This document shows positions 1-63,126 of a stretch of 64,000 nt of DNA, one piece after another (positions within the stretch are counted from its first letter, which is position 1; every line of letters begins with the position of its first letter). Origin of the DNA: a virus. The stretch is taken from the IMG/VR virus record IMGVR_UViG_3300045988_143923; one strand, written 5' to 3'. Position numbers and translations under genes: made by a program. Below the pieces are notes generated by a model that did no database searches, had not been told where the DNA came from, and was given only the letters and a program-made list of their open reading frames with translations.

Positions 1-18
1 ATTGTTTGAGGTGAAATT

Positions 19-810
19 ATGATCGGCGCAATTATCGGTGATATTGTCGGCTCACGTTTCGAGTACGACAACATTAAAATCAAAGACTTTGAGTTGTTCA
101 CGGATGACTGCCACTTCACCGACGATACAGTTCTGACAGTTGCTGTCGCAGGTGCATTGTTAGACGGTGGCAGACCAAGTTATTCACAATTACAGAAGAG
201 CACAAGAGTGTGGTTGCGCGGTCTTGCAAAGAAGTACCCCACCGCAGACTATGGCACACGGTTTGAAGATTGGGTCAATAGCAAATCCGATGAGCCGACC
301 AACAGCTATGGGAATGGGGCTGCGAGTCGAATTTCTCCTGTCGGCTTTGTTACCGCAAGCCGTGAACAGACGATAACGCTCGCGGATACGATTACCGGCG
401 TAACGCATAATCATGTTCACGCGCTCATTGGTGCCAGCGCGGTGGCTGTGTCAACGTATTATGCGCGAATCAGGTGGCCAAAAGAGCAGATCAAGAAACA
501 CATCAACGAATATTTTTACCAAATGGACTTCACTCTGGATGAAATTCGGCCAACGTATTCGTATTCTCTGGCGTGCTGGGATACCGTCCCGCAGGCGCTC
601 GAAGCGTTTTTTGAATCGACCAGTTTTGAGGATGCTATCCGCAACGCGATTTCAATCGGTGGCGATAGCGATACGATTGCCGCAATTACCGGCGGTGTAG
701 CCGAAGCATACTATGGCGTGCCACAGGAATTAAGAGAAAAGGCCGAATCTTATCTGGATGAACGACTTCTTCGTGTTATCCATGCCTTTGAAAACCTATT
801 TGAACGATGA
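19..810 (+). CDS. ADP-ribosylglycohydrolase family protein (DraG/ARH-like)
   Basis: 263-aa ORF behind a GAGGTGA RBS. It has the N-terminal GAIIGDIVGSRFE and C-terminal GGDSDTIAAITGGVAEAYYG motifs typical of ADP-ribosylglycohydrolases. Confidence 0.85.
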   Translation: MIGAIIGDIVGSRFEYDNIKIKDFELFTDDCHFTDDTVLTVAVAGALLDGGRPSYSQLQKSTRVWLRGLAKKYPTADYGTRFEDWVNSKSDEPTNSYGNGAASRISPVGFVTASREQTITLADTITGVTHNHVHALIGASAVAVSTYYARIRWPKEQIKKHINEYFYQMDFTLDEIRPTYSYSLACWDTVPQALEAFFESTSFEDAIRNAISIGGDSDTIAAITGGVAEAYYGVPQELREKAESYLDERLLRVIHAFENLFER

Positions 811-822
811 GGTGTTTGTAGC

Positions 823-1200
823 GTGACGTTAGATGAAGCGATTGAACATTTTGAGCGTATATACTGGGCAAAAACAGATGAAGATGGTGTTGAGTTTCCG
901 CAGCTTTCGCGTTGGTTGACCGAACTGAAAGAACTGCGAAAATTATGCGACTCTAAGTTGATAGACAACCGCCCACTTACACCGCGCGAGTTGATGTCCT
1001 TAGACGGTGAAGTGGTTTGGGTTAAAACCCAAAACGACTACGTTGTAAGTCAGCGCATGGTGGTGGATTCGACCAATCAGGTATGTGGTTCATTGTTACC
1101 GGGAACTGTCTTGTCGTTTGTAGATGGAGCGAATCATAATTGTGCTTATTGGGACTTGTGGGCAGCTTATCGTCTCAAACAGGAGGATAAAGAAGCATGA
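823..1200 (+). CDS. hypothetical early protein
   Basis: 125-aa ORF (GTG start) tightly packed in the co-directional gene array. No motif recognised. Confidence 0.55.
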   Translation: MTLDEAIEHFERIYWAKTDEDGVEFPQLSRWLTELKELRKLCDSKLIDNRPLTPRELMSLDGEVVWVKTQNDYVVSQRMVVDSTNQVCGSLLPGTVLSFVDGANHNCAYWDLWAAYRLKQEDKEA

Positions 1201-1439
1201 AAATCATAAAGCACGGGTTTCGTAAACCGCCGAAACTAATGCGATACAGGTGGGAATGCGAGAGATGCGGGTGTTTGTTTGAATATACCTATGAAGACCT
1301 AACGGTTGAATGGCACTTCAAGTATGGCGGCGGACGTAAACAGGGAGAAGGGGTTCTTTACTGCCCGGATTGTGGCATGAGAATTCCTGTTACTGAGGTT
1401 TTTGGATTTGAGATAGAGGAGGATAAAAATGACGATTGA
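1197..1439 (+). CDS. small zinc-ribbon protein
   Basis: 80 aa with an ATGA start/stop overlap. Has CERC...CPDC cysteine pairs. Confidence 0.6.
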   Translation: MKIIKHGFRKPPKLMRYRWECERCGCLFEYTYEDLTVEWHFKYGGGRKQGEGVLYCPDCGMRIPVTEVFGFEIEEDKNDD

Positions 1440-1818
1440 TGCAGCTATTAGGTACGCGGATATGCTTGCGAATGATGCAAGCACGATCTGGGAAATCCCC
1501 ATGGTGGAAATCCAGAGGCTTCACACGCTATGTGCGGACACGTTGCGGACGGTAAACGCGATGAGAGCCGAACCTCAGTGCCCAAATGACGTTGCGACGG
1601 AAGCACCGGGCACATGGCAGCAGCGCATGAAGCGCGAGTACCGCGAGACGAAGGAACGCTACGAGAAGTTACACCGCATGGTGACGAAGTACGAGGCCGG
1701 AACACTTGACTTCACTCCCAACTGTTCTCTTGACCTGCTCCGCCAGCAGAAGCGCCACATGGGCGAATACCTGCACGATCTTGAAATCCGAGCTGAAGTT
1801 GAGGGGATTGAACTGTGA
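1429..1818 (+). CDS. hypothetical helical protein (resembles small crAss001_48-type phage proteins)
   Basis: 129 aa, overlaps the upstream stop. The charged helical C-terminal half (KERYEKLHRMV...LLRQQKRHMGEYLHDL) supports this, but family assignment is from memory only. Confidence 0.5.
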   Translation: MTIDAAIRYADMLANDASTIWEIPMVEIQRLHTLCADTLRTVNAMRAEPQCPNDVATEAPGTWQQRMKREYRETKERYEKLHRMVTKYEAGTLDFTPNCSLDLLRQQKRHMGEYLHDLEIRAEVEGIEL

Positions 1819-2012
1819 AAGTAATCACTCACGGGAAATTCGGCGCACGAAGACATAGATGTGTCGGGTGTGAATGTGTATTTGAGTACACGACGGACGA
1901 TATCCATCACGCGGGCACAGACGACTACGAGGGCACAGACGACGGCCGGAGATTATTCGTTCTGTGCCCCGAGTGCGGCAGACCAGTAGCAGCTGTGTGG
2001 AGGAAGAGATGA
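1815..2012 (+). CDS. small zinc-ribbon protein
   Basis: 65 aa with CVGC...CPEC and a start/stop overlap. Confidence 0.55.
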   Translation: MKVITHGKFGARRHRCVGCECVFEYTTDDIHHAGTDDYEGTDDGRRLFVLCPECGRPVAAVWRKR

Positions 2013-2152
2013 ACATGTGGGACGATAACGACTACTGTTACGAATGCACCGGATACGGTGATGACTGGTACGAGGATGAGAACGGCGAACTTCAATCTCG
2101 CTGCGGTGACTGCCCGTTTAATCCGTCATACGATCCCGAGGAAGATTGGTAA
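2009..2152 (+). CDS. small acidic Cys-rich protein
   Basis: ATG at 2009 overlaps the upstream TGA (ATGA). Has CYEC...CGDC. Confidence 0.45.
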   Translation: MNMWDDNDYCYECTGYGDDWYEDENGELQSRCGDCPFNPSYDPEEDW

Positions 2153-2424
2153 TGTACGACAGCTTCATCGACATTTGGGAGGGAAGCCCTATGTGGGGAC
2201 AACACATCGAAGACTGGAAAACATCAGAAGAACAGAACGACGATTCATCCAACCGCTGGATTGTCGAGCTGGCGGATAACGGCTGGATGGATCACATCTG
2301 TCCTCGATGCCATTACAAGCGCAATCTGGACAACCATGTAATCAACACATATAGATATTGCCCGTACTGCGGCACACGACTCTATGGAGGAGGAAACGAC
2401 GATGGGTCTCGACGTTACGATTAA
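2146..2424 (+). CDS. small zinc-ribbon protein
   Basis: 92 aa with CPRC...CPYC. Confidence 0.55.
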   Translation: MVMYDSFIDIWEGSPMWGQHIEDWKTSEEQNDDSSNRWIVELADNGWMDHICPRCHYKRNLDNHVINTYRYCPYCGTRLYGGGNDDGSRRYD

Positions 2425-2719
2425 GGAAATACAAGAGTTTCGTTGTCCAGACTGCGGTAAGCTCGTAACGACAAAGGATGTCAATGAGGTCAGTGTCGGA
2501 GGGCTTGACTGGCGCGACTTCTTAAAGTCAATCGACTATTACGCTGAGGGCGGCGATAGCGATTGGTACGGCAAAGACATGGTACTTACCGACGAACAGG
2601 CTCGTGAGCTTGCCAAGTATTCTGTCAAAAATGTTTACTGGCCGAACAACGATATCGAAAAGCTCGTGGCCGTCGCTCTGCTGAGAGGTCATAAGGTGGT
2701 TGTCAATGCAGATTGGTGA
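2402..2719 (+). CDS. hypothetical protein with CPDC motif
   Basis: ATG at 2402 preceded by a GGAGGAGG RBS. The ORF track offers an alternative start at 2384. Confidence 0.55.
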   Translation: MGLDVTIKEIQEFRCPDCGKLVTTKDVNEVSVGGLDWRDFLKSIDYYAEGGDSDWYGKDMVLTDEQARELAKYSVKNVYWPNNDIEKLVAVALLRGHKVVVNADW

Positions 2720-2900
2720 TACACAAATCATTTATTGCCGAAACTGCAAATTCTACGGAGTAGGAGAGGAAGGCGTTAAAGATTGTCTTAATCCGTATGG
2801 GTTATTCCTCTCCAAGGAATTTGATTTTTGCAGCTTAGCAGAGTTAAAAAGTAATAGCGAAGGAGAACAAAATAAAAGCTGGCTTAATGCTCGCGGTTAA
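2700..2900 (+). CDS. small Cys-containing hypothetical protein
   Basis: 66-aa ORF containing CRNC. The start is uncertain. Confidence 0.4.
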   Translation: MSMQIGDTQIIYCRNCKFYGVGEEGVKDCLNPYGLFLSKEFDFCSLAELKSNSEGEQNKSWLNARG

Positions 2901-2939
2901 TCCACAAGCAAAAGGAAGAATGAAGGAGAAAGAGCAAAA

Positions 2940-3227
2940 ATGAGTTTTCCATATCGAGAAAAAATGAACAATCTCAGAACTGGCGATATTTTTGAGAAAG
3001 ACGGGGTTGTTTATGCAGCGTTAAGTGGACCTTCATATTTTGTGGACCTATCTTGCTGCACAATGATCGTGACAATACCAAAAATTATGAAAGAAAAAAT
3101 GATTTTTGATGGCGATTTCGACTTCATTTTAGTCGTTCCGGAAGAAGAAGTTGAAGTAGTAGGCGTAGATATAAACGTGATAGCAAAACATAACGAAGTA
3201 GTTTGTCAGCAATCTAAAAAGAGGTAA
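2940..3227 (+). CDS. hypothetical protein, tandem paralogue A
   Basis: 95 aa. Its N-terminus MSFPYREKMNNLRTGDIF matches the next gene's MDFPQTKKMRDLRTGDVF. Confidence 0.6.
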   Translation: MSFPYREKMNNLRTGDIFEKDGVVYAALSGPSYFVDLSCCTMIVTIPKIMKEKMIFDGDFDFILVVPEEEVEVVGVDINVIAKHNEVVCQQSKKR

Positions 3228-3233
3228 TTCAAG

Positions 3234-3506
3234 ATGGACTTTCCACAGACAAAGAAAATGCGTGATCTCAGGACTGGCGACGTTTTTGTGCGAGACGACT
3301 TTACATATGTAGCAATCGCCGACCCATACTACGGCACAGTCTGGGTGACAAAGCCGGAATTCATAAACGAAGAGGGAGTATACAGCTACACATCGGCTGC
3401 TTTACTGCAATACGAACCAGAAGATGAGGCAGAAGTCATCGGTCAAGATGAGCGCTCTCTGAAGATGTTCCGGCGAAAACACACTTATTCTAATGAAAAG
3501 GAGTAA
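3234..3506 (+). CDS. hypothetical protein, tandem paralogue B
   Basis: 90 aa, clear paralogue of 2940..3227. Confidence 0.6.
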   Translation: MDFPQTKKMRDLRTGDVFVRDDFTYVAIADPYYGTVWVTKPEFINEEGVYSYTSAALLQYEPEDEAEVIGQDERSLKMFRRKHTYSNEKE

Positions 3507-3511
3507 CCTAA

Positions 3512-3712
3512 ATGCGACTTTACTGGCTCTTACTTATTATCCCGTTCTTTGCTCTGTCTGTCATGGACGTAAAGAAGGCATGTGGGAAGATCAAAGACGC
3601 CCGCAGGAACCCGGTAGTTCGTGATGACGCACTGAATCTCGGACTCTCCGTGTACTCACTGATTGTCTGTGCGGTTCTAATGATCCTGATGATGCTCGGG
3701 GTAATCGGATGA
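3512..3712 (+). CDS. small membrane protein
   Basis: 66 aa with two hydrophobic segments. Confidence 0.5.
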   Translation: MRLYWLLLIIPFFALSVMDVKKACGKIKDARRNPVVRDDALNLGLSVYSLIVCAVLMILMMLGVIG

Positions 3713-3852
3713 TCTTCTGGGGCTCGCTCTTCGTTATAACTGTGACAATGGATTGGCTTATTGTTAATGCGTCAACAGAAGAAGAAGAACTAGTCGCAGC
3801 AGTTCTCGGAATCATAGCGATGATTATGATACTTGTGTACTTTGTGCGGTAA
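3709..3852 (+). CDS. small membrane protein (below the ORF-track size cutoff)
   Basis: 47-aa ORF read by hand. It has an ATGA overlap with the upstream stop and hydrophobic ends. Confidence 0.35.
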   Translation: MIFWGSLFVITVTMDWLIVNASTEEEELVAAVLGIIAMIMILVYFVR

Positions 3853-3861
3853 GGAGATTTT

Positions 3862-4053
3862 ATGACAGCAGGAATTATTGCACTCTTATTCGGTGTGGCC
3901 GGGCTTATCATAAACACGTCCTCTGGCCGAGTAAAAGGCGACCGAATTCTACGATGGCAGCTTAGAAGTGCCGCAGAATCGTGTTTCATCTTCTCGGTTT
4001 TGTTCTGGATGGCTTTCGCATTCCACTTGATTTGTACGATGAGAGGTGCGTAA
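3862..4053 (+). CDS. small membrane protein
   Basis: 63 aa, hydrophobic, with a GGAG RBS. Confidence 0.45.
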   Translation: MTAGIIALLFGVAGLIINTSSGRVKGDRILRWQLRSAAESCFIFSVLFWMAFAFHLICTMRGA

Positions 4054-4077
4054 CGTGAAAAATATGTGAACACAGCA

Positions 4078-4245
4078 ATGATTACTTCTGGTTCCGCGGA
4101 CGATTTTAATAAACGCTTAGCGAGTACGATTGAGGATTTTCAGAATCATGGCTGTGAAGTTGAAGTTCAGTATCAAACTGTGTTCAGAAAATCCTCTGAA
4201 CATTTTCTATACACCGCTTTAGTTCTCGCATATCGAATGGAGTGA
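4078..4245 (+). CDS. small hypothetical protein
   Basis: 55-aa ORF read by hand that fills the gap between neighbouring genes. Confidence 0.3.
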   Translation: MITSGSADDFNKRLASTIEDFQNHGCEVEVQYQTVFRKSSEHFLYTALVLAYRME

Positions 4246-4451
4246 TTGTTATGTTTTTGAGATGGTATCGCAGAAAAATCGCAGAAGCAGTTGAAGCAAG
4301 AATGTCATATATGGCAACTTGCCTGAATGAGCGTGACATCATTTTGAACCTTATCGCCCCAAAAGATTACAAACGAAAGGGTATACCCCATTGTAGCACA
4401 GATTGCCACAATAACTCATGTTATTCCTATCGTGCCAATAAGAAAGGCTGA
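4242..4451 (+). CDS. hypothetical protein
   Basis: 69-aa ORF. An alternative ATG lies at 4251. Confidence 0.4.
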   Translation: MIVMFLRWYRRKIAEAVEARMSYMATCLNERDIILNLIAPKDYKRKGIPHCSTDCHNNSCYSYRANKKG

Positions 4452-4458
4452 TTTGATT

Positions 4459-4767
4459 ATGCAATACGTTCCAAAAATTCAAAAAGGTGATATTGCTGAC
4501 ATATATGTGGCTGGCATGAAATTATTCTCGGTCAGACTCGGAGAGATTGATTGTTCTTTCGAAACGGCCGAAATCAGAAATGAAGTCAGGCCGGGTGTAG
4601 TTGAAGTGACAATTCCTGCGGATTTTGTACCTAACTGCAAAATCACAATAGAAGGAACTGTCCAGTCAGACGTAGAACTCTCCTTTACAAAATCCGTATC
4701 GCCCGAGAGGGCCGCTACGGCTGACGATATGATCAGCAAATTACAACAATTCATTATCGAAAAGTAA
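4459..4767 (+). CDS. hypothetical protein
   Basis: ORF 4432..4767. The ATG at 4459 avoids overlap with the upstream gene. Confidence 0.5.
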   Translation: MQYVPKIQKGDIADIYVAGMKLFSVRLGEIDCSFETAEIRNEVRPGVVEVTIPADFVPNCKITIEGTVQSDVELSFTKSVSPERAATADDMISKLQQFIIEK

Positions 4768-4794
4768 ATCTGAGCGTGAAAGGAACTGAATCAG

Positions 4795-5592
4795 GTGGCA
4801 AATAATAATTATTGGATAGGCAAAGAGGCACGAGCTAAAAGGGCTGCCGAATGGACAACTAAGAATACGAGAGAACACAGCGAGGAAATAAGACGAAGCG
4901 TTGCCAACGCTAAGATCTACGATGATGAGGATGGACGCAAGCGCGTTTTCATGCCAGGCGCACCCACCTCTGTGCCGGTTCTTCGCTTGCTCGCAGAAGA
5001 TTCTGTTACGGCACTTTGTAATTGCAAAGCAAAGCATCCCTCGCAAAAGGTCGCCGTGCTCAATTTCGCGTCCTACAAGAACCCCGGCGGCATGTTCCTA
5101 AAAGGCAGTCGTGCACAGGAAGAGTGCCTGTGCCACGAGTCGTTCTTGTATAATGTGTTGCGTGAGTTTGAGGAAGAGTATTATAGTCAGAATCGAAAAA
5201 CGCTGCGCCGAGCAATGTACACCAATCGCGCCATTTATGCCCCTGATGTACACTTTTACCACAACGGGGGAGATGTGACCTGCGACGTCATTACATGTGC
5301 AGCTCCCAATTTTTCTGCAGGTGCCAAATACGCGAACGTAGATCCCGCAACTAACAGCAAAGCCTTATTTTCTCGTATCCGCTTTGTTTTGGACGTTGCC
5401 GCAGCGCAGAAAGTAGATACGCTCGTTCTTGGCGCGTTCGGCTGCGGTGTATTTGGACAGAACCCAACGGAGGTAGCTGAGATCATGCGAGACCTTGCAG
5501 GAAAATATCCTTTTGCTGAAGTCGTATTCGCAATACCTGACCCAAACCATGAGAACTATGTTTCGTTTGCTAAGGTTTTCGATAATCACTAA
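4795..5592 (+). CDS. TIGR02452-type macrodomain protein (microbial PARG-like ADP-ribose hydrolase)
   Basis: 265 aa. The signature VAVLNFASYKNPGGMFLKGSRAQEECLCHESFLYNVL plus LVLGAFGCGVFGQNP matches the bacterial PARG-like/DUF2263 family. Confidence 0.8.
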   Translation: MANNNYWIGKEARAKRAAEWTTKNTREHSEEIRRSVANAKIYDDEDGRKRVFMPGAPTSVPVLRLLAEDSVTALCNCKAKHPSQKVAVLNFASYKNPGGMFLKGSRAQEECLCHESFLYNVLREFEEEYYSQNRKTLRRAMYTNRAIYAPDVHFYHNGGDVTCDVITCAAPNFSAGAKYANVDPATNSKALFSRIRFVLDVAAAQKVDTLVLGAFGCGVFGQNPTEVAEIMRDLAGKYPFAEVVFAIPDPNHENYVSFAKVFDNH

Positions 5593-5621
5593 TTTTCGGA
5601 TTACTAGAAGGAGGATTTTAT

Positions 5622-5807
5622 ATGGACTTTTCTGAGCGATTCCCTGACATGAAAGTCGGAGAAGCAAAGCACGCACTTCTCAAGCATCAGATCAGCTTGC
5701 CATGCTGTATCTGTGGGAAGAAAACTCCATTCTCCGATCTCCGTTTTGGGCGAAGACTTTGCAGTTCAGAATGCTTTGATTACTTTTATGAGGATGTGTA
5801 CGGATGA
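5622..5807 (+). CDS. small zinc-binding protein
   Basis: 61 aa with CCICGKK...CSSEC. Confidence 0.5.
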   Translation: MDFSERFPDMKVGEAKHALLKHQISLPCCICGKKTPFSDLRFGRRLCSSECFDYFYEDVYG

Positions 5808-6118
5808 AGAAGATTTTTATTACTGCTACGGTTGTTTGCTTATCCTTGGTGACATTAACTGGCTGTTCGGTTACGGTGCGAGAGTCATCTGAAGATCCCG
5901 ATGCCATCTCGACTATTGGACTTAGATCAAGCCAAGGAAGCGGATTGTTTTGTGACGTTTGCGGTAAAGAGTTGAGTAACCGAGAATGCGGCGAAGACTA
6001 TCAGATTACGTTTTTCAGAGGGCGTCTCGTAGAGGAGACCTACAACTTAGTATGTCCTGATTGCGCAGACAACATTGAAGCGTACATTGAACAATTAAAG
6101 AACAGAGATGAGAAATGA
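5804..6118 (+). CDS. lipoprotein with C-terminal zinc-ribbon
   Basis: Signal peptide plus lipobox (LVTLTGC). The C-terminal CDVCG...CPDCADNIEAYI motif is shared with 6837..7058. Confidence 0.6.
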   Translation: MKKIFITATVVCLSLVTLTGCSVTVRESSEDPDAISTIGLRSSQGSGLFCDVCGKELSNRECGEDYQITFFRGRLVEETYNLVCPDCADNIEAYIEQLKNRDEK

Positions 6119-6124
6119 GGTTTT

Positions 6125-6514
6125 ATGAAGATCAGAGGATTCACCAGTTCGGATTCCCCGAACTTAGAAAAAGATATGAAACAGGCATTGCTGTATCATT
6201 CTATCGTAAAGGTCGAAGAGGTAGACGGTCAGACCGGTCGGCTTATTTTAGACGATGGTACGCGACTGATCGTAATCGGGAACGAGGGCTGTGGCGGCTG
6301 TGGCAATGGGTGGTTCTACTTAACCAAGCTCAACACTTGTGAAAATATGATTACGGATGTTAAGTGTTCCGATGATTTTGATGATGGGGATGAAGTGTTC
6401 TCGCTGTTCGTTTATTCTGTGAACCAGCCAGCAACCGAAGTTCTTCGTTACGAAGGTTATGACAACGGATATTACGGAACAGGTTATCGTGTTTATGTCG
6501 AAATCGAGGAATAA
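6125..6514 (+). CDS. hypothetical protein (GNEGCGGCGNGWF motif)
   Basis: 129-aa ORF in the packed array. Confidence 0.55.
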   Translation: MKIRGFTSSDSPNLEKDMKQALLYHSIVKVEEVDGQTGRLILDDGTRLIVIGNEGCGGCGNGWFYLTKLNTCENMITDVKCSDDFDDGDEVFSLFVYSVNQPATEVLRYEGYDNGYYGTGYRVYVEIEE

Positions 6515-6516
6515 AT

Positions 6517-6831
6517 ATGAAGAAATTTTTCATTATGGTTGCGGTCATTTTCTCTCTTCTCGCCCTGCTGACCGGATGCAGTGATGCGGAGATAGTCGGA
6601 GACAACCGTTTAGAGCAGACCCTCGCCAGAGACTTTGGCGGCACAACTATCATCAACCTCGAACCAAATCTGAAACTCGAAGAGATTACTTGGAAGGACG
6701 ACGACCTTTGGTATCTCACTCGACCGATGCGCGAGGATGAGGAGCCTAAGACGCACACCTTTACAGAGAAGGGCGGTCTCGGAACCGTCTTTGATGGTGG
6801 CGCCGTTATTGTCGTTGAGAGAAAGGAATAA
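6517..6831 (+). CDS. lipoprotein
   Basis: MKKFFIMVAVIFSLLALLTGC signal peptide with lipobox. Confidence 0.6.
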   Translation: MKKFFIMVAVIFSLLALLTGCSDAEIVGDNRLEQTLARDFGGTTIINLEPNLKLEEITWKDDDLWYLTRPMREDEEPKTHTFTEKGGLGTVFDGGAVIVVERKE

Positions 6832-6836
6832 ATCTG

Positions 6837-7058
6837 ATGACCAGAGTATTTTGTGACATCTGTGGAGAACAAATCTATTACGGACTGATGGAACCAGTTT
6901 ACAGAATCAATATGCATGCAGTAAGCGGGAATGTAGTCAATGGAGACGAATCTTATGACTACGAGGAAGTTTGTTCTAAGTGCGTCAAGAATATCGCATC
7001 CTATATTAAAGGAATGCCCAGACCGTACATACTACCTTCTGAAGACGTAAAAGGTTAA
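6837..7058 (+). CDS. small zinc-ribbon protein
   Basis: 73 aa with CDICGE...CSKCVKNIASYI. Confidence 0.5.
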   Translation: MTRVFCDICGEQIYYGLMEPVYRINMHAVSGNVVNGDESYDYEEVCSKCVKNIASYIKGMPRPYILPSEDVKG

Positions 7059-7090
7059 TTTGGAGTGACTTACAATGAGCGAAACTTCAA

Positions 7091-7288
7091 TTGCAACCAG
7101 TGCAAAGCAAACCGAAAATAGCTGAAAGAGAATCAGAAGAAGAGGAGAGAACAGTGACCAAAGGACGTTACACCAGAGATTTTTATTTCCTGCCGACCAT
7201 TCTGCTTCACAACGGCGAATGTTATGTCAGCGTCGAGCTTGCATGGCTCAAGTGGTATATCGGTATTGTTCTTGCGGAGGATTTCTAA
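7091..7288 (+). CDS. hypothetical protein (start uncertain; GTG at 7154 has the better RBS)
   Basis: ORF-track frame with a hydrophobic C-terminus. Confidence 0.35.
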   Translation: MQPVQSKPKIAERESEEEERTVTKGRYTRDFYFLPTILLHNGECYVSVELAWLKWYIGIVLAEDF

Positions 7289-7644
7289 TGAGTGACATTT
7301 CAGATCTTAGCCCCAAGGCACAGGAGCTTTACCGCAAAATCATGAGCGGCAAATATCTCACAGAACAGAGCGATGATATTCCTCTGCCGATGCGCCGCTA
7401 TTTCTGCCAAACACTCCATCTGGTTCGCGGATGGTTTGAAAGTCACCAAGACCAGATGAGGTTGTACTGTATGAACAGCACAGCCGGAGCAATCGCCATT
7501 CTCAAAGAGATGGAGAAGAATCCTGACGAGCTGATGAAGGGAGACTTCGCAGAGTTTCCGGTACCGGAACCGTTTAACACGAAGTTCAAGAAAAGAGCAA
7601 AGAAAATGCGAGAAAAACTCGCGAAAAAAGAGAAGAGTGAGTAA
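7288..7644 (+). CDS. hypothetical protein
   Basis: ATG at 7288 overlaps the upstream TAA. 118 aa with a lysine-rich tail. Confidence 0.55.
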   Translation: MSDISDLSPKAQELYRKIMSGKYLTEQSDDIPLPMRRYFCQTLHLVRGWFESHQDQMRLYCMNSTAGAIAILKEMEKNPDELMKGDFAEFPVPEPFNTKFKKRAKKMREKLAKKEKSE

Positions 7645-7646
7645 AG

Positions 7647-7775
7647 ATGGGAATTCCACAGATTATTGTCCTCATCTGGACAGCGTTAGAACTCTGCATT
7701 GGGTGGTATTATCACGGACAGCCGCTGCCGGGCAAAATTGATTTTCGCGTGCAGTGGATTTTCATGTGCGATTAA
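7647..7775 (+). CDS. small membrane protein
   Basis: 42-aa ORF read by hand, starting 3 nt after the upstream stop. Confidence 0.3.
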   Translation: MGIPQIIVLIWTALELCIGWYYHGQPLPGKIDFRVQWIFMCD

Positions 7776-7810
7776 ACTCATCGTTCTGGGGGCCGGCGGC
7801 TTCTTCGATT

Positions 7811-7841
7811 AAAAAAAGCTGACGTCAATCGTCAGCTTTTA
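7811..7841. terminator. bidirectional rho-independent terminator
   Basis: AGCTGACG/CGTCAGCT hairpin flanked by an A-run and a T-run, lying between convergent genes. Confidence 0.6.
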
Positions 7842-8166
7842 AGGTTTGAGCGAGTTTCTTTTTCTCGCGGCATTTTTTAATTCGCATCGCGTTCACAGTC
7901 GTGCCCCAGTCTTTGCGCGGGCCCTTCCTATAAGGAATGTAAGAGGAGACTGCGCTTGTAGATATTTTCAAAAGCTCAGCTATGTCCTTAGTCGGCATGC
8001 CTGCTACATATAGCTGTTGAATACGTTTTGCCCGTTCGGAAGTATACAGACCGGCTGTAATCAGTGTTCTCCTGACCGTTTGCTCGGAGATATTCAAAAC
8101 CGCGGCGACCCCTTTTATGCTCTGCGAGAGTCTATACTACTCCAGAATGTCATTGTACTGGCTCAT
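7825..8166 (-). CDS. double helix-turn-helix regulator containing an in-frame TAG (codon 10)
   Basis: ATG at 8166 sits behind an AAAAGAGGTGAGGAT RBS. The reading is MSQYNDILE-TAG-YRLSQSIKGVAAVLNISEQTVRR..., and the first HTH spans the TAG-proximal region. The ORF track only reports 7825..8097. Confidence 0.55.
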
Positions 8167-8227
8167 ATCCTCACCTCTTTTGTCTATTATACCATAAATA
8201 AGTTACGGGAACAAGGAGTGAAATCTA

Positions 8228-8872
8228 TTGTCAACATACGTTATGGCCGACATCCACGGCGAGATTGACCGTTATCACGCGATGCTCGACCTTATCAACT
8301 TCAGCGCGGACGACCAGCTTTACATCATCGGCGACATCATCGACCGAGGTTCGGAAGGACTTACAATCCTTCAGGAAATCATGGATAAAGGCAACGTTCA
8401 TTTTATCCTCGGCAACCACGAGGACATGATGCTCGGCACACTCAGTCAGCATTCATACCCGGGTGCGAGAACCATGTGGAAGCAGAACGGCGGCGACAAG
8501 ACCTATCGCGAACTGCTCTATCATATGACATCCGTCGACCGTGAGCGTATCCTCGCTTACTGCCTGACCAGACCGGCAATGGAGACAGTTGAGGTAGGCG
8601 AAACATCGTGGACTTTGGTTCATGGGCGACCCTCAACCAAGTTCCTCGACATGATCTGGGGCAGGGTGGAAGCCGATGACGATTTTGGAAACGCACATTA
8701 TATCGTAGGGCACACGCCGACCTGTTATCTGACCAAGCGATTCAAAGAGCCGTACCACATCTTCCACGGCAAGGGATTCCTTTGCATCGACTGCGGATGC
8801 GGGAATTTGACGAATCCATACCGCCGACTGGCTTGTTTGAGGCTGGAAGACATGGCTGAATATTACGTCTAA
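8228..8872 (+). CDS. Ser/Thr protein phosphatase (lambda-type metallophosphoesterase)
   Basis: Has the DIHGE, GDIIDRG and GNHE motifs. Confidence 0.85.
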   Translation: MSTYVMADIHGEIDRYHAMLDLINFSADDQLYIIGDIIDRGSEGLTILQEIMDKGNVHFILGNHEDMMLGTLSQHSYPGARTMWKQNGGDKTYRELLYHMTSVDRERILAYCLTRPAMETVEVGETSWTLVHGRPSTKFLDMIWGRVEADDDFGNAHYIVGHTPTCYLTKRFKEPYHIFHGKGFLCIDCGCGNLTNPYRRLACLRLEDMAEYYV

Positions 8873-8876
8873 GAGA

Positions 8877-8904
8877 CGCCGCACGACTGTGCGGCGTTCA
8901 TTTT
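8877..8904 (+). terminator. rho-independent terminator
   Basis: CGCCGCAC-GACT-GTGCGGCG hairpin followed by a T-rich tract. Confidence 0.55.
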
Positions 8905-9062
8905 CCCTTCATTCAAAAATATTTTCAAAAAATCAAAAAAAGTTTAGGTTTTCGCGTCCCAAAATCGCGATTTTTGTATAGTAGTATATGTAGAGAAAAA
9001 ACGAGAGCGACCACAGAAAGCGAGTGAGCACATGAGAGAGTACCACAAAAGGAAGAACGAGT

Positions 9063-9266
9063 ATGAGAAATCCGGCGAGAATTGATGAGTTCTGCGACCG
9101 CTTGAAGGTCGCGTGGAAGAAACTGCCTGATTGGCGCTTCGGTCAGTTCATGATGAACTGCTTGGGGTCTATGCACGCGCAAGGCCGCGACCCGTTCTTC
9201 CCGGAAGAGCCGGAGATGATTGAGTTCATTGAGAAATACGCCGAAAAATACGGAATCGGCGATTAA
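9063..9266 (+). CDS. hypothetical protein
   Basis: 67-aa ORF. Confidence 0.5.
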   Translation: MRNPARIDEFCDRLKVAWKKLPDWRFGQFMMNCLGSMHAQGRDPFFPEEPEMIEFIEKYAEKYGIGD

Positions 9267-9313
9267 ATAAACGGAGTTTATACCAGATAGAATTACGAAA
9301 AGAGGGATTTTTT

Positions 9314-10006
9314 ATGAGATTAGCAAAGGGAACACGCGCGAAAATTGTTCGTCAGTTTACCAGTCAGGATCGGCTTGGAGACGTTTTCGAGGTCGCGGAA
9401 TGTGATTCCGAGTCTATCACGTTGAGTCGGTGCTATTCCGATTCAAACTCTTATCTGCATGAGTACACCTACACCATGCCGACAGACGAGTTCGGCGTTT
9501 TCTTCGAGATTATCGGCATGGAAAAGCCGAAAAAGGATAAGAAGAATGCCAAAAGCGAGGCGCTTATTGGCGACTACACCGAAACCGAACTCGATGATCT
9601 CTGGTGTCTTGCAGGTTCGTACGAGGATTTCAAAGCAATGCTGAAACTCGGTACTAAATGGCACCCAAGCAAGCAGCCGAAGAAGCAACGCGAGTGGACT
9701 GACTGGAAACGGTGGGGCGACGACCAGTGGTATGAGTATTCCGTCAGCCGTCCGGTTGGTCAGTCTGCAAAGGTAAAAGTGAGAACGCCCGATGGCTTTA
9801 TCGGTACTGCATCCTGTAGTCCGGATGATAATTTCGACCTTGCTTATGGTGTCGAGTTGGCATCCATTCGAGCCGAGATTAAAAATACAAAAGATGACGC
9901 AGCGCGAGCGTTCACTGACTACTTGATTGAAAAAAGAAGCGTCGAAGACCTGAAAAAGCGCTTAGAAAAGGTTCTGGGTCGCGCTTACGGAAAGGCGGCG
10001 AAGTAA
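9314..10006 (+). CDS. hypothetical protein
   Basis: 230-aa ORF with an RBS. No motif recognised. Confidence 0.6.
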   Translation: MRLAKGTRAKIVRQFTSQDRLGDVFEVAECDSESITLSRCYSDSNSYLHEYTYTMPTDEFGVFFEIIGMEKPKKDKKNAKSEALIGDYTETELDDLWCLAGSYEDFKAMLKLGTKWHPSKQPKKQREWTDWKRWGDDQWYEYSVSRPVGQSAKVKVRTPDGFIGTASCSPDDNFDLAYGVELASIRAEIKNTKDDAARAFTDYLIEKRSVEDLKKRLEKVLGRAYGKAAK

Positions 10007-10623
10007 TGGCAGACAAAACACAGTTTTTAAGCCCGGAGCAGCTCGCCAAGAATCGGAAAGAGTTCCTGCAGATCCTGCGTGACAATGTGAAGCGCGACGG
10101 TGTAGAGGATTTGATTCACTATCTGGAGAACAATGATTTCTTTACTGCTCCGTCTTCGACCAGATTTCACGGCAACTATGAAGGCGGCCTTTGTGAGCAT
10201 TCGCTGAATGTTTATGATTGTCTGGTGGCTCTTCATCAGAAGTACGAAAAGTTCGAATACACAGACGAAACACTGGCGATCGCGGCTTTAATGCATGATT
10301 TATGCAAGTGCCTAACGTATAAGAAGCAGCCGGCCTTCCGCAAAGACGCAGACGGCCGCTGGGAGCAGTACATGTCATACAAGTTTGATGAGGTATTTCC
10401 GGGCGGCCATGGCGAGAAATCGTGCTTCATCATTCAGCAGTTCATGAAGCTGACGCCCGATGAGTATCTGGCAATCCGATGGCACATGAACGGTTTTGAC
10501 AACGCCGTTAAGGGCGGCGACCGAGCAATGAACGCGGCAGCCGAGAAGTGCAAGCTCGTACCGATGCTTCAGCTAGCCGACATGGAAGCCAGCCACATGC
10601 TCGAAATTACCGTGGAGCACTAA
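10006..10623 (+). CDS. HD-domain phosphohydrolase
   Basis: Has FHGNYEGGLCEHS and ALMHDLCK (H...HD) motifs. Its start overlaps the upstream stop. Confidence 0.75.
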   Translation: MADKTQFLSPEQLAKNRKEFLQILRDNVKRDGVEDLIHYLENNDFFTAPSSTRFHGNYEGGLCEHSLNVYDCLVALHQKYEKFEYTDETLAIAALMHDLCKCLTYKKQPAFRKDADGRWEQYMSYKFDEVFPGGHGEKSCFIIQQFMKLTPDEYLAIRWHMNGFDNAVKGGDRAMNAAAEKCKLVPMLQLADMEASHMLEITVEH

Positions 10624-10681
10624 AGACAACACACCCGGCAAAGGGTTAAATATACAGAATCACAGTTAAGGAGTGACAAAC

Positions 10682-10870
10682 ATGGGTATTCCCAAGCACA
10701 AGCCAAGCGCGAAGCAGAAGTCTCGCGCCAAGTATCAGAGCGAGAACCGTCTCGCAAAGAATAAGGAGCGACGCCAGAAGAAGCACGAGAAGCGCCTCGA
10801 GTATTTCAAGAAGCGCCGCCAGAAGAAGTACGAGAAGCGCCGCGAAAAGAAGCAGGAGGAAGCTAAGTGA
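10682..10870 (+). CDS. extremely basic small protein (K/R-rich)
   Basis: ATG at 10682 sits behind an AAGGAGTG RBS. About half of the 62 residues are K/R. Confidence 0.45.
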   Translation: MGIPKHKPSAKQKSRAKYQSENRLAKNKERRQKKHEKRLEYFKKRRQKKYEKRREKKQEEAK

Positions 10871-34011: not shown

Positions 34012-34950
34012 GTGAATGATATGTCTGAAAAATATACGGTTATACAACATGAAAAGCGTGTGTTCTGGGCGCATGATTGTCCTGTACTACTGCAGGCTCA
34101 TGCTTTAACAAAGAACAATGTAGACAACAGTATCTTGGTTCAATGCAAATTCGAAAATCTATCTGAACAGAACATAAAGGCGATGTTTGTTTCCGTCAAG
34201 TGTTTTGATGTTCTGAATAGAGAATTAACTGGAGTGGACAAATTTTCTTATCTGGATATTTCGATACAACCATATACGTTGTTTGGAGACAGGACAGCTA
34301 TACTACTGCCGGATAATGAAACCAGAAATATTCGCATCACTCCTGAGCAAATAGTGTTCTCTGACAACACAGTCTGGGAAAACAAATATAGGCAAGCATA
34401 TGAGTTAGCGAAATATGATCAACTACCAATTTCTTCTTTAGGAGAATTAGCAAGCCAGTATAGCCGAGATTTAAGTTACATCAGCCCCACACAGCAGCAT
34501 AACTATTTGCCTTGTCATGAAAATGGATTTGTTATTTGCGGATGTGGAAAAATTGTTATGAATTCGGTTGCGAATTGCCCCTGCTGCAAGGTTCCCTTGA
34601 AAGCATTGTTCGACTTGAATAATGTCAAAAATCTGGAAAAACATCTCTCTGAATACAATGCTGAACTAGAAGATAATTATAAAAAAATTGAGATTCAACG
34701 CGCCAAAGAGAAAGCCATACTATCTGAAAAGGCCCGACAAGAGGAACTTCAACATCTGCAGAGAAATCCTTTTATAAAACAAAATCCGAGTTCAGATCAT
34801 ACAAAAGTATATAATCTGAAGAAAAAAATCGAGTTAAGTATCTTTGAGAAGGTAGATAGTAAGATTGAAAAAAATAAAAATGCTGTTCTCATCGTTCTCT
34901 TCGTTTTGGTCATATTACTCGCAATCGTGTTACCTCTATATTTGGGGTAG
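34012..34950 (+). CDS. zinc-ribbon, coiled-coil, C-terminally membrane-anchored protein, cassette gene C
   Basis: Has CGCGK...CPCCK, a K/E-rich helix and a terminal TM segment (VLIVLFVLVILLAIVLPLYLG). It ends in TAG. Confidence 0.6.
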   Translation: MNDMSEKYTVIQHEKRVFWAHDCPVLLQAHALTKNNVDNSILVQCKFENLSEQNIKAMFVSVKCFDVLNRELTGVDKFSYLDISIQPYTLFGDRTAILLPDNETRNIRITPEQIVFSDNTVWENKYRQAYELAKYDQLPISSLGELASQYSRDLSYISPTQQHNYLPCHENGFVICGCGKIVMNSVANCPCCKVPLKALFDLNNVKNLEKHLSEYNAELEDNYKKIEIQRAKEKAILSEKARQEELQHLQRNPFIKQNPSSDHTKVYNLKKKIELSIFEKVDSKIEKNKNAVLIVLFVLVILLAIVLPLYLG

Positions 34951-34989
34951 TCAAAAAATGTGGCACTTTTGTCATTCAGAAAAAATAAG

Positions 34990-35016
34990 AAAAGCACCCT
35001 TTTACAGGGTGCTTTT
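34990..35016. terminator. bidirectional terminator
   Basis: AAAAGCACCC-TTTTACA-GGGTGCTTTT hairpin. Confidence 0.65.
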
Positions 35017-35286
35017 ATTTGCATATGTTCCCTTCAGGTAGGCTTCGGCTATCTCATATTGACGCTGAAGCTCGCACAGGTGATCTTGAAGACGACGAAA
35101 GGAGTAGCTAGGAATTTCGTCGATGATAAAACCATTACTGCCCGTACCGGTCACCTTCTGACCCTTCGCATAAGCGATAGAGCCAGTCTGCATGTCGGAT
35201 GCGACAATGGTAGCGTCGTTAGTATCCACATCGAGCTTGCGGATATTAAGCGACTTTACAGGTGTACTGCCGAGACAAAGTTTCAA
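35002..35286 (-). CDS. truncated fibre N-terminal module
   Basis: DTNDATIVASDMQTGSIAYAKGQKVTGTG matches the N-terminal module of the two BNR-propeller genes. Confidence 0.45.
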   Translation of the reverse strand: MKLCLGSTPVKSLNIRKLDVDTNDATIVASDMQTGSIAYAKGQKVTGTGSNGFIIDEIPSYSFRRLQDHLCELQRQYEIAEAYLKGTYANKSTL

Positions 35287-35305
35287 TATTGATCACCTCT
35301 TTCTT

Positions 35306-52274: not shown

Positions 52275-52309
52275 ACCCGAAATCTTTTCGAGCAAAGCTC
52301 AGTATATTC
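52275..52309 (-). CDS. tape measure protein, 35-nt micro-exon (…NILSFARKDFG…)
   Basis: Restores the conserved DQANIL.. motif in frame between two introns. Confidence 0.65.
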
Positions 52310-52972: not shown

Positions 52973-53132
52973 CTGACCACTTTTGTGGCGGCAAGGCCGT
53001 TAAACCTTGCTCTCGCGTTTCGTTGTTAGATTATAGCGCGAGTTCGGACTGTATCTTCACCCCAGAGCGGGGGAATGGCGAAGCCCCGCTTGTTACCAAG
53101 CGGGGCTTTACAGTCTCTACGGATATTAAAAT

Positions 53133-56577: not shown

Positions 56578-56578
56578 A

Positions 56579-63050: not shown

Positions 63051-63126
63051 TGGCACGAGTGCTTCGAGTCGAACGAAGATCGGAGAATTTTGGAGATTCC
63101 CAGTTTCCCAATTAGCCTACACTCGC
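63051..63126 (-). tRNA. tRNA-Trp (anticodon CCA)
   Basis: Hand-folded 76-nt cloverleaf. Anticodon loop CUCCAAA, T arm CTTCG-TTCGACT-CGAAG, encoded CCA. There is one C-A mismatch in the D stem and a G1-U72 pair. Confidence 0.8.

What the first reader, a model, noticed from the sequence alone, without database searches (positions are those of the whole stretch)
7825..8166. In-frame TAG at codon 10 of an otherwise intact double-HTH regulator
A strong RBS (AAAAGAGGTGAGGAT) precedes the ATG at 8166. The frame reads MSQYNDILE-TAG(8139..8137)-YRLSQSIKGVAAVLNISEQTVRRTLI... and continues for 104 more codons. The residues flanking the TAG form the helix leading into the first HTH. The only downstream alternative start (TTG at 8097) would begin inside that HTH and destroy it. 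The gene therefore looks functional only if the TAG is decoded or read through.
Basis: seen in the sequence. Interest (0 to 1): 0.7.

Follow-up and report, generated by a model that had tools for sequence, protein, structure and literature searches.

The report
Recent amber mutation in phage regulator
The in-frame TAG is real, but it is a private, very recent single-base nonsense mutation (CAG to TAG) in a normally conserved two-HTH phage regulator, in a phage that otherwise uses TAG as an ordinary stop codon, so it is most likely a knocked-out or crippled allele and not a case of special decoding.

Summary
A minus-strand gene (ATG 8166, GAGGTG RBS, TGA 7825-7827) has TAG at codon 10 (8139-8137) and then 103 sense codons encoding two HTH motifs. 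Homologues (89 clusters, about 100-117 aa) all keep the N-terminal helix, and none naturally starts at the TTG 8097 position.

The TAG is not a decoding feature.
- Position 8139 is the only difference from another sample's genome over 10,810 bp, and five samples carry the identical allele with CAG (Gln).
- It is the only in-frame stop in about 81 window genes.
- 15 close-clade contigs (about 70,000 aligned residues) have no in-frame TAG.
- TAG terminates three window genes and swaps with TGA/TAA at the same stop in relatives.
- No tRNA(CUA) lies in the window or in about 29 kb of flanks in near-identical genomes.
- No RNA structure surrounds the TAG.

Intact alleles show dN/dS of 0.05-0.20, and the same gene carries other lesions (7-, 12- and 27-bp deletions, 1-bp indels) in other samples.

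A sister clade (about 71% identity) really is TAG-recoded (20+ in-frame TAGs). One member turned the tRNA-Trp(CCA) gene, which the window also has, into CUA. The window keeps CCA.

Verdict: an ordinary amber loss-of-function or hypomorphic allele, of low interest. About 7% residual chance of trans-suppression.

The parts
7825..8166 (-). Reading frame of the two-HTH regulator (113 codons plus TGA stop), interrupted at codon 10.
   Evidence: sequence and translation. (Pfam HTH_23, Sigma70_r4_2 and GerE above cut-offs). (89 homologous clusters, nearly all 100-117 aa). (dN/dS 0.05-0.20 among intact alleles).
8137..8139 (-). Amber codon TAG at codon 10. It is CAG (Gln) in all near-identical genomes. 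Base 8139 (A on the + strand) is the mutated base.
   Evidence: L001 has CAG. (8139 is the only difference from L156 in 10,810 bp, and the shared difference versus L154 and L158). (five samples carry the same allele with CAG). (column 10 is Q, R, H or K in homologues).
8172..8177 (-). Shine-Dalgarno core GAGGTG, 5 nt upstream of ATG 8166.
   Evidence: Read directly from the sequence. The upstream region is identical in L001.
8186..8194 (-). Extended -10 promoter element TGGTATAAT for the regulator gene, in the 61-bp divergent intergenic region shared with the metallophosphatase gene (8228-8872, +).
   Evidence: Read directly from the sequence. The consensus scan did not list it because there is no good -35 hexamer. 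Its function is inferred, not shown.
8125..8160 (-). Codons 3-14, helix 1 of the first HTH domain. The TAG lies in the middle of it.
   Evidence: AlphaFold2 model, mean pLDDT 89.6, H1 = residues 3-14.
8053..8118 (-). Codons 17-38, helix 2-turn-helix 3 of the first HTH.
   Evidence: H2 17-24, H3 28-38. (Pfam stretches at 14-39).
7942..8037 (-). Codons 44-75, the second HTH domain (H4-H6).
   Evidence: H4 44-54, H5 59-66, H6 70-75. (best Pfam stretches at 41-77). (domain-level similarity to GerE/NarL/LuxR-type HTHs).
7834..7896 (-). Codons 91-111, the long basic C-terminal helix. It follows the conserved linker LPYxRGPRKDW.
   Evidence: H7 91-111. (P78, N92, A93, I96 and R100 nearly invariant or invariant).
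8095..8097 (-). TTG, the only canonical in-frame restart codon after the TAG (residue 24). An SD-like AAAGGGG (8115-8109) lies 11 nt upstream. Use of this start would give a 90-aa product lacking H1 and H2.
   Evidence: ORF 7825-8097, TTG, 90 aa. (sequence). (residue 24 ends helix 2). Use of this start is inferred, not shown.
7811..7840 (-). Intrinsic terminator: an 11-bp hairpin (7840-7814) with the TGA stop in its loop, followed by a T-run and preceded by an A-run, so it is potentially bidirectional.
   Evidence: dG -14.8 kcal/mol, z = -5.37, 0 of 200 shuffles fold as well. The hairpin is conserved in relatives.
63051..63126 (-). Context: phage tRNA-Trp with anticodon CCA. The orthologous gene in sister-clade genome L052 has anticodon CUA (an amber suppressor). 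The window copy is NOT a suppressor.
   Evidence: ARAGORN. (sequence, loop CTCCAAA). (L052 has CTCTAAA in the same gene). (the CUA variant occurs in only one IMG/VR contig).

Best explanation
The gene encodes a 113-residue DNA-binding regulator with two helix-turn-helix domains and a basic C-terminal helix. It is conserved in a group of about 100-175 kb SPbeta-like siphoviruses of gut Clostridia. There it is always the lone opposite-strand gene, divergent from a metallophosphatase gene, inside the early/replication gene block. It has its own extended -10 promoter, strong RBS and terminator.

In this genome, one C-to-T transition on the coding strand changed Gln codon 10 (CAG) to amber (TAG). 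This lineage uses the standard genetic code, so release factor 1 will terminate translation after nine residues in nearly all ribosome passages. The allele is therefore a null or strong hypomorph.

Residual product could arise in two generic ways. One is rare near-cognate readthrough; insertion of Gln would restore the wild-type protein, and column 10 is variable, so any residue would probably do. The other is re-initiation at TTG 8097, which would give a 90-aa protein with a broken first HTH.

Shown: the mutation, its privacy and recency, standard-code usage in this lineage, and purifying selection on intact alleles. Inferred: termination at the TAG, loss of function, and the regulatory role of the protein.
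For: (1) Single-base origin and privacy.
- L001 is 99.93% identical over 2,696 bp, with CAG at codon 10.
- L156, from another sample, differs from window 1-10,810 only at 8139. L154 and L158 differ at 2 and 5 sites, always including 8139.
- Five samples share the allele with CAG.
- 0 of 30 related loci have a stop in the N-terminal helix.

(2) No recoding in this lineage.
- 8139 is the only in-frame stop found when relatives' called genes or ORFs are aligned to the window.
- Apparent extra cases at 62758, 24901, 61080-61811(+) and 34960-35292(+) were shown to be spurious ORF extensions or antisense shadows.
- 15 close-clade contigs, with about 70,000 aligned residues, have 0 in-frame TAG.

(3) TAG is a working terminator.
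- Three of 81 genes end in TAG.
- The stop of gene 36421-37533 is TAG here, and TGA, TAA or TAG at the same codon in relatives.

(4) No suppressor tRNA is visible.
- None lies in the window, in about 10 kb to the left, or in about 19 kb to the right in near-identical genomes.
- The window's tRNA-Trp keeps CCA.

(5) No stimulatory RNA structure lies around the TAG (z = -0.49).

(6) The gene is normally constrained (dN/dS 0.05-0.20), so the frame is 'otherwise intact' simply because the lesion is young.

(7) Other sporadic lesions hit the same gene in other samples: a 7-bp deletion (L150), a 27-bp deletion (L151), a 12-bp deletion (L035), a 1-bp deletion (L149) and a 1-bp insertion (L152). All belong to singleton clusters, against 58, 26 and 66 member sequences for the intact alleles.

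(8) Borges et al. (bioRxiv 10.1101/2021.08.26.457843) describe standard-code relatives of recoded phages as TAG-depleted, with the rare stop still able to do damage as a nonsense mutation.
Against: - About 33 kb of the roughly 125.7-kb genome could not be inspected in any near-identical relative, so a suppressor tRNA there is not excluded.
- The recoded sister genome 131771 also shows no tRNA(CUA) in the roughly 75 kb I could see, so absence of a visible suppressor is weak evidence by itself.
- TAG is a rare terminator here (3 of 81 genes).
- The TAG replaces a Gln codon, the residue that recoded phages put at TAG. However, CAG to TAG is also the commonest single-step route to amber.
- That the only difference in 10.8 kb is a nonsense change in this gene is unlikely for a neutral random hit (0.15%). 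This hints at selection for the knockout, or at an artefact.
- No expression or read-level data were available.
Confidence: 0.76

Rival explanations
1. The TAG is efficiently decoded, probably as Gln, by an amber suppressor tRNA. The tRNA could be encoded in the unseen part of this phage's genome, by a co-resident TAG-recoded relative, or by the host. In that case the regulator is made, possibly with a delay. This genome would then be an incipient stage of TAG-to-Gln recoding.
For: - A sister clade at about 71% identity is truly recoded: 20 in-frame TAGs in contig 131771 and 4 in contig 143321, against 1-2 TAA or TGA, and half of them align to Q.
- In 143321, the tRNA-Trp gene shared with the window carries a one-base CCA-to-CUA change.
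- TAG terminators are rare in the window (3 of 81).
- The TAG replaces Gln.
- Recoding in phage clades mixed with standard-code relatives is documented.
Against: - There is one in-frame TAG in about 81 genes here, against 20+ in the recoded clade.
- There are none in about 70,000 residues of 15 close-clade contigs.
- The TAG is absent from five genomes with the same background, so it is not a selected, conserved site.
- The window's tRNA-Trp is CCA, and the CUA variant occurs in only one IMG/VR contig.
- No tRNA(CUA) lies in the window plus about 29 kb of flanks.
- TAG interchanges with TGA/TAA as a terminator.
- Even the recoded clade's copy of this regulator has no TAG (L005).
Confidence: 0.08
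2. The T at codon 10 is not the true majority base. It would then be a sequencing or assembly error, a DNA-damage (C-to-T deamination) artefact, or a minority variant promoted to the consensus.
For: - It is a single C-to-T transition on an otherwise identical background and was never seen again. Exact-pattern scans of the viral, genome and metagenome collections found no TAG allele.
- Look-up of the truncated 90-aa ORF found only a frameshifted CAG allele, on an error-prone contig with 3 indels in 1.3 kb.
- Low-coverage assemblies of this phage do carry dubious lesions (L150 at cov 4.7; L152).
Against: - The rest of the window shows no frameshifts or stops in about 80 genes. It is 100% identical to independent assemblies over 12,160 bp and has one difference in 10,810 bp, so the consensus quality is high.
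- Substitution errors in consensus sequences are rare.
- Larger, non-artefactual deletions in the same gene in other samples show that real lesions do occur here.
Confidence: 0.1
3. The allele is functional as a shorter protein. After termination at codon 10, ribosomes re-initiate at TTG 8097 (SD-like AAAGGGG 11 nt upstream) and make a 90-aa protein. This protein would keep the second HTH and the C-terminal helix and would retain or alter the regulatory activity.
For: - The TTG with an upstream purine-rich, SD-like motif lies 39 nt after the stop.
- The second HTH, the conserved linker and the C-terminal helix remain intact.
- Gene callers do pick this ORF.
Against: - No natural homologue uses this start.
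- The product would lack helices 1 and 2 of the first domain, so that domain cannot fold.
- The N-terminus is among the best-conserved parts of the family.
- The 11-nt spacing and the TTG codon make it a weak start.
Confidence: 0.05

Closest known systems
Classical amber (nonsense) mutant alleles of phage genes, as in the conditional-lethal amber mutants of T4 and lambda (named from my own knowledge)
   Same: A single-base change of a sense codon (here CAG) to TAG in an otherwise intact, functionally constrained phage gene. Full-length product would be made only in the presence of an amber suppressor tRNA, and Gln insertion would restore the wild type.
   Different: This is a natural variant in a metagenome-derived gut phage, not a laboratory isolate. 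Whether the gene is essential, and whether any suppressing host or helper exists, is unknown.
Genetic code 15 (TAG to Gln) stop-codon recoding in gut phages (Borges et al., bioRxiv 10.1101/2021.08.26.457843; Peters et al. 2022, PMC9523058; phAss-1 group, PMC10607447)
   Same: In-frame TAG at a position that is Gln in relatives. The phage belongs to a family in which a sister clade is truly recoded and a suppressor arose from a phage tRNA. TAG is a rare terminator here, as reported for standard-code relatives of recoded phages.
   Different: Recoded phages have in-frame TAGs in many genes (41 of 147 ORFs in phAss-1; 20+ in the sister clade here) and usually carry tRNA(CUA). This genome has one, private to it, has no visible suppressor, and still uses TAG to terminate genes.
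LuxR/GerE/NarL-type and sigma-70 region 4-type helix-turn-helix DNA-binding domains
   Same: Each half of the protein matches these HTH profiles (Pfam GerE, Sigma70_r4_2 and HTH_23 above cut-off; PDB GerE 6jqs, E = 0.0026; per-domain Foldseek matches).
   Different: No solved structure matches the whole two-HTH plus C-terminal-helix architecture (best PDB E = 0.24). No NCBIfam model reaches its cut-off. There is no receiver or sigma region 2 domain. Only uncharacterised gut-phage proteins match at full length.

Membership tests
TAG-recoded (code 15) phage genome | In-frame TAG at conserved sense positions in many genes | tested here: not met
   Only 1 of about 81 genes. The sister clade, used as a positive control, shows 20 and 4.
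TAG-recoded (code 15) phage genome | TAG not used as a genuine terminator | tested here: not met
   Three genes end in TAG. The terminator of 36421-37533 alternates between TAG, TGA and TAA at the same codon among relatives, and 34012-34950 ends in TAG in five relatives. TAG is nonetheless depleted (3 of 81).
TAG-recoded (code 15) phage genome | Suppressor tRNA with CUA anticodon encoded by the phage | tested here: inconclusive
   None in the window, in about 10 kb to the left, or in about 19 kb to the right in near-identical genomes. The tRNA-Trp slot has CCA. About 33 kb of the genome is unseen, and recoded relative 131771 also lacks a visible one.
TAG-recoded (code 15) phage genome | The in-frame TAG is shared by close relatives (maintained by selection) | tested here: not met
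   CAG in five genomes with the identical background. No stop in 30 related loci.
Programmed stop-codon readthrough | Conserved leaky stop with a conserved stimulatory context or downstream RNA structure | tested here: not met
   The stop is not conserved. The fold of 8060-8185 is no better than shuffles (z = -0.49). The stop is followed by U, which from general knowledge is not a leaky context.
Pyrrolysine decoding of UAG | tRNA-Pyl (CUA) plus pylS/pylBCD genes | tested here: not met
   No CUA tRNA in the window. ARAGORN's 'tRNA-Pyl' label in L052 is a tRNA-Trp gene with a one-base anticodon change. pyl genes were not searched for specifically.
Nonsense (amber) loss-of-function allele | One-step change from a sense codon present in near-identical relatives, and private to this sequence | tested here: met
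   CAG to TAG. It is the only difference in 10,810 bp from L156.
Nonsense (amber) loss-of-function allele | The gene is otherwise under purifying selection (a functional gene, not an old pseudogene) | tested here: met
   dN/dS is 0.05-0.20 among intact alleles. The N-terminal residues are nearly invariant.
Nonsense (amber) loss-of-function allele | Translation actually terminates at the TAG and the protein's function is lost | not testable with these tools
   Needs proteomics, a reporter assay or phenotype data.
HTH_23 / GerE / Sigma70_r4_2 helix-turn-helix superfamily (Pfam) | Profile score above the curated gathering cut-off | tested here: met
   HTH_23 38.3 bits (cut-off 24.6), Sigma70_r4_2 36.0 (25.7), GerE 35.3 (23.5), with two stretches each. 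The model shows two tri-helical HTH units.

The most novel reading that the evidence does not exclude
This genome may capture the very first step of TAG-to-Gln recoding. It would be a standard-code, TAG-depleted phage, sister to a recoded clade in which a shared tRNA-Trp gene became a CUA suppressor. It has acquired its first in-frame TAG at a Gln codon of an early regulator. The allele would survive because a suppressor tRNA is supplied from the unseen third of the genome, from a co-infecting recoded relative, or from the host. Regulator synthesis would then depend on suppressor availability.
Probability: 0.07. Interest if true: 0.6.

Novelty: already known. Interest (0 to 1): 0.2.

Why it matters
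In itself it matters little. It is a naturally occurring amber allele of an uncharacterised phage regulator, and annotation should flag the gene as disrupted without invoking an alternative code.

Two things give it modest value.
- It is a cautionary example. An 'otherwise intact' gene with one in-frame TAG at a Gln position, in a family that does contain recoded members, still turns out to be an ordinary mutation once near-identical genomes are compared.
- The same regulator carries several independent lesions in other samples while being under strong long-term purifying selection. That suggests knockouts are repeatedly tolerated or favoured, as with repressor-type genes, which makes this small two-HTH protein a sensible target for functional study in these abundant SPbeta-like gut phages.

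The neighbouring observation is the more interesting evolutionary material: a recoded sister clade with a one-base tRNA-Trp CCA-to-CUA switch.

Tried and rejected
(1) Genome-wide TAG reassignment. Stop-to-stop ORF statistics under alternative codes showed no particular gain for TAG, and a refined gene map confirmed standard coding.

(2) Apparent additional in-frame stops. All were rejected after inspection.
- TAA at 62758 lies in a spurious 5' ORF extension in relatives.
- TAG at 24901 lies in an antisense shadow.
- 34012-34950 plus 34960-35292 are not one gene. The minus-strand ORF 35002-35286 scores better, and neither has a Pfam hit.

(3) An initial result that close relatives carry TAG aligned to Q. 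It was an artefact of antisense shadow ORFs in a length-based gene call (e.g. 61080-61811+). It vanished with a codon-score gene set.

(4) P0018 as a naturally short homologue starting at the 8097 position. Rejected: the frame is open upstream to a TTG with an RBS.

(5) P0043 (90 aa) and the exact 90-aa ORF hit L152 as further amber alleles. Rejected: both are frameshifts with an intact codon 10.

(6) Exact-pattern scans for the TAG or CAG allele in the viral, genome and metagenome collections found nothing. A blastn of 7000-9300 against GenBank phages also found nothing.

(7) The 93-nt tRNA-Gln(UUG) as a decoding device. It occurs in both recoded and non-recoded genomes, so it does not correlate with recoding.

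(8) A readthrough-stimulating RNA structure. None was found.

(9) Functional assignment via PDB, BFVD, NCBIfam and GenBank phages gave only generic HTH similarity.

(10) Look-up of the right-end protein with my start call found only a 1-kb contig.

Full report
OBSERVATION

On the minus strand, an ATG at 8166-8164 follows AAAGAGGTGAGGAT (GAGGTG core, 5-nt spacer). The frame reads MSQYNDILE, then TAG at 8139-8137, then 103 sense codons to TGA at 7827-7825. Pfam detects two separate helix-turn-helix stretches, about residues 14-39 and 41-77. HTH_23, Sigma70_r4_2 and GerE all score above their gathering cut-offs. The first canonical in-frame start after the TAG is TTG 8097.

IS THE UPSTREAM FRAME THE REAL N-TERMINUS?

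Yes. A search of 5.8 billion proteins returned 19 relatives, and a profile search returned 89. Nearly all are 100-117 aa, and the close ones start MSQY…. In the alignment, M1, S2, Q3, Y4, D6, I7, L8 and Y11 are nearly invariant. Column 10 is Q in the closest relatives and R, H or K in others.

The one hit that seemed to start at the equivalent of 8097 (P0018) is a start-calling artefact. Its frame is open upstream to a TTG preceded by GGGGTGGAG, and it encodes the same helix. In 30 related loci from viral and genome collections the N-terminal helix is open, with no stop.

An AlphaFold2 model (mean pLDDT 89.6) has these helices:
- H1 3-14, H2 17-24 and H3 28-38, forming the first HTH.
- H4 44-54, H5 59-66 and H6 70-75, forming the second HTH.
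- A conserved linker, then H7 91-111.

Residue 10 is mid-H1, and residue 24 (the TTG) ends H2.

WHERE DID THE TAG COME FROM?

A Logan contig (L001) is 99.93% identical to the window over 2,696 bp. Its two differences both lie in this gene: CAG versus TAG at codon 10, and AGG versus GGG at codon 19.

An exact look-up of the window's left-end protein retrieved long contigs (48-142 kb) from other samples.
- L156 differs from window 1-10,810 at one base only, position 8139.
- L154 differs at two bases and L158 at five, always including 8139.
- Five samples carry an allele identical to the window's except for C in place of T.

The TAG is therefore a private, very recent C-to-T transition of a Gln codon. 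Pattern scans of three public collections, and a look-up of the truncated 90-aa ORF, found no second copy of the TAG allele.

DOES THIS PHAGE DECODE TAG?

First, other in-frame stops. Genes called on relatives' contigs, and ORFs of relatives covering nearly the whole window, were aligned to the window by tblastn. 8139 is the only in-frame stop in a real gene. Several apparent extra cases were examined and rejected as spurious ORF extensions or antisense shadows. An early impression that close relatives carry TAG opposite Q disappeared once shadow ORFs were removed with a codon-usage gene model.

Second, with that refined set of 81 genes as queries:
- 15 close-clade contigs (79-100% identity, about 70,000 aligned residues) have no in-frame TAG.
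- Two contigs of a sister clade (about 71% identity) have 20 and 4 in-frame TAGs, against 1-2 TAA or TGA. Half of those TAGs align to Gln.

So the method does detect recoding where it exists.

Third, TAG is a working terminator here. Three genes end in TAG. The stop of gene 36421-37533 is TAG in the window and TGA, TAA or TAG at the same codon in relatives.

Fourth, tRNAs.
- The window has only tRNA-Trp(CCA) and tRNA-Gln(UUG).
- Near-identical genomes show Pro, Gly, Leu x2, Ser, Thr and sometimes Met within 10 kb to the left.
- They show nothing further within about 19 kb to the right.
- There is no CUA anticodon in any of this.

Fifth, the RNA around the TAG folds no better than shuffled sequence (z = -0.49).

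THE TWIST

In sister-clade contig 143321 (L052), the tRNA occupying the slot of the window's tRNA-Trp is the same gene with one anticodon base changed, CCA to CUA. This variant is found in only one IMG/VR contig. TAG suppression therefore exists in the wider family, and the window's lineage fits the published picture of TAG-depleted standard-code relatives of recoded phages (Borges et al.). But the window keeps CCA, and even the recoded clade's copy of this regulator has no TAG.

A caveat cuts the other way. Recoded genome 131771 shows no tRNA(CUA) in the roughly 75 kb I could inspect. So a missing suppressor is weak evidence on its own, and about 33 kb of the window's roughly 125.7-kb genome remains unseen.

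WHAT THE GENE IS

Synteny is conserved in all relatives. The gene is the lone opposite-strand gene within a long block of early and DNA-metabolism genes (SSAP, SSB, PD-(D/E)XK, DnaB, DnaG, Pol III alpha). It is divergent from a metallophosphatase gene across a 61-bp region that carries an extended -10 element (TGGTATAAT). It ends in a strong hairpin terminator whose loop contains the stop codon (dG -14.8 kcal/mol, z = -5.4).

Intact alleles are under strong purifying selection (dN/dS 0.05-0.20).

No solved structure matches the whole protein. Single domains resemble GerE/NarL/LuxR and sigma region 4 HTHs. Only uncharacterised gut-phage proteins match at full length. No NCBIfam model passes its cut-off, and no GenBank phage encodes a homologue.

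The best-supported reading is an autonomous DNA-binding transcription regulator acting at or near the divergent promoter region. This is inferred from architecture and context, not shown.

OTHER LESIONS IN THE SAME GENE

Among close-clade alleles in public assemblies there are:
- a 7-bp deletion (L150, frameshift at about codon 43),
- a 1-bp deletion in an A-run (L149),
- a 1-bp insertion in a G-run (L152),
- a 27-bp in-frame deletion removing the core of the second HTH (L151),
- a 12-bp in-frame deletion (L035),
- C-terminal frameshift variants (P0006, P0007).

All are singletons, whereas the intact alleles have 58, 26 and 66 member sequences. Some of the 1-bp indels sit on low-coverage or error-prone contigs and may be artefacts. 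The larger deletions are unlikely to be.

A random substitution in this 10.8 kb has only a 0.15% chance of being a nonsense change in this gene. Together these facts hint that knockouts of the regulator are tolerated or sometimes favoured. This is a post hoc inference and needs a proper population count.

CONCLUSION

The most likely explanation (about 0.76) is an ordinary, recent amber nonsense mutation giving a null or hypomorphic allele of a normally constrained regulator, in a standard-code SPbeta-like gut phage. At most, trace full-length protein would come from near-cognate readthrough, or a defective 90-aa product from re-initiation at TTG 8097.

The rivals are:
- a consensus or sequencing artefact (about 0.10),
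- genuine suppression by an unseen, helper or host tRNA (about 0.08),
- a functional truncated product (about 0.05).

The finding is real but ordinary, and its interest is low. The recoded sister clade and the one-base tRNA-Trp to CUA switch, noticed along the way, are the more interesting biology.

Noticed in passing
L052:4313-4388 (= L148:9000-9075, L172:19376-19451); compare window 63051-63126 (-): In sister-clade contig IMGVR_UViG_3300045988_143321, the tRNA in the slot of the window's tRNA-Trp(CCA) is the same gene with a single anticodon change to CUA, which makes it an amber suppressor. Only this one IMG/VR contig has the variant.
   Followed up: yes
L005, L053, L060, L138, L171 (contig 3300045988_131771) and L052/L172 (contig 143321): A sister clade (about 71% mean protein identity, though some structural genes are 94%) is truly TAG-recoded. 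It has 20 and 4 in-frame TAGs in early and late genes (Q 10, N 4, E 2, others) against 1-2 TAA or TGA. Contig 131771 has CCA in the tRNA slot and no visible suppressor in about 75 kb, so how it decodes TAG is unexplained.
   Followed up: partly
window 63130-63222 (-): The tRNA-Gln(UUG) is 93 nt long, with an 18-nt hairpin insertion forming a long variable arm (Rfam tRNA 53.2 bits). Relatives carry either this form or a normal 75-nt form with a different anticodon stem. The long form occurs in both recoded and standard-code genomes.
   Followed up: partly
window 63051-63126 (-): ARAGORN calls a tRNA-Trp(CCA), but the Rfam tRNA model does not report it at the gathering threshold, which suggests an atypical tRNA body. 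This is the gene that became a CUA suppressor in a relative.
   Followed up: no
window 51921-52284 (-) and 54258-54566 (-): Two group I introns (Rfam 61.2 and 69.2 bits) lie between the 570-aa YomI-like/PhageMin_Tail ORF (54820-56532) and the 2088-aa ORF (45603-51869). A giant tape-measure-like gene therefore appears to be split into exons, and the ORFs between them (52669-52980, 53133-53660) may be exon or homing-endonuclease ORFs.
   Followed up: no
L150:828-1007, L151:96-410, L035:5773-6099, L149:815-1087, L152:888-1160: There are independent lesions of the same regulator gene in other samples: a 7-bp deletion, a 27-bp and a 12-bp in-frame deletion in HTH2, a 1-bp deletion and a 1-bp insertion. 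Neighbouring genes are intact except in L152. This suggests recurrent loss of function, though some lesions may be low-coverage artefacts.
   Followed up: partly
window, whole (gene set): TAG is a rare terminator (3 of 81 genes, against TAA 51 and TGA 27). This matches the TAG depletion reported for standard-code relatives of recoded phages.
   Followed up: partly
L003:13351-13423, L005:19322-19394, L153:8301-8373 (just left of window position 1 in relatives): A conserved 73-nt tRNA-like element that ARAGORN cannot assign ('tRNA-???', two-base anticodon call). It has no CUA anticodon.
   Followed up: no
window 19-810, 1429-1818, 4795-5592; L153:4663-8263: The early region is rich in candidate anti-defence and NAD-related genes. 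The window has an ADP-ribosylglycohydrolase, a Sequestin-domain protein and a PARG-like protein. Some relatives have, just left of the window, isochorismatase/PRTase/NAMPT/NAD synthase genes and SocA_Panacea. Structural genes carry SPbeta-type Pfam domains (YonD, YonB, YomW, YomV, YomU, YomN).
   Followed up: no
window 1-2717 versus 51841-64000, compared with ENA ERZ1744957 NODE_34 (L153, L160): Mosaicism: the same 125.7-kb contig is 100% identical to window 51841-64000 but only about 90% identical over window 1657-2717. This indicates recent recombination among co-circulating strains.
   Followed up: no
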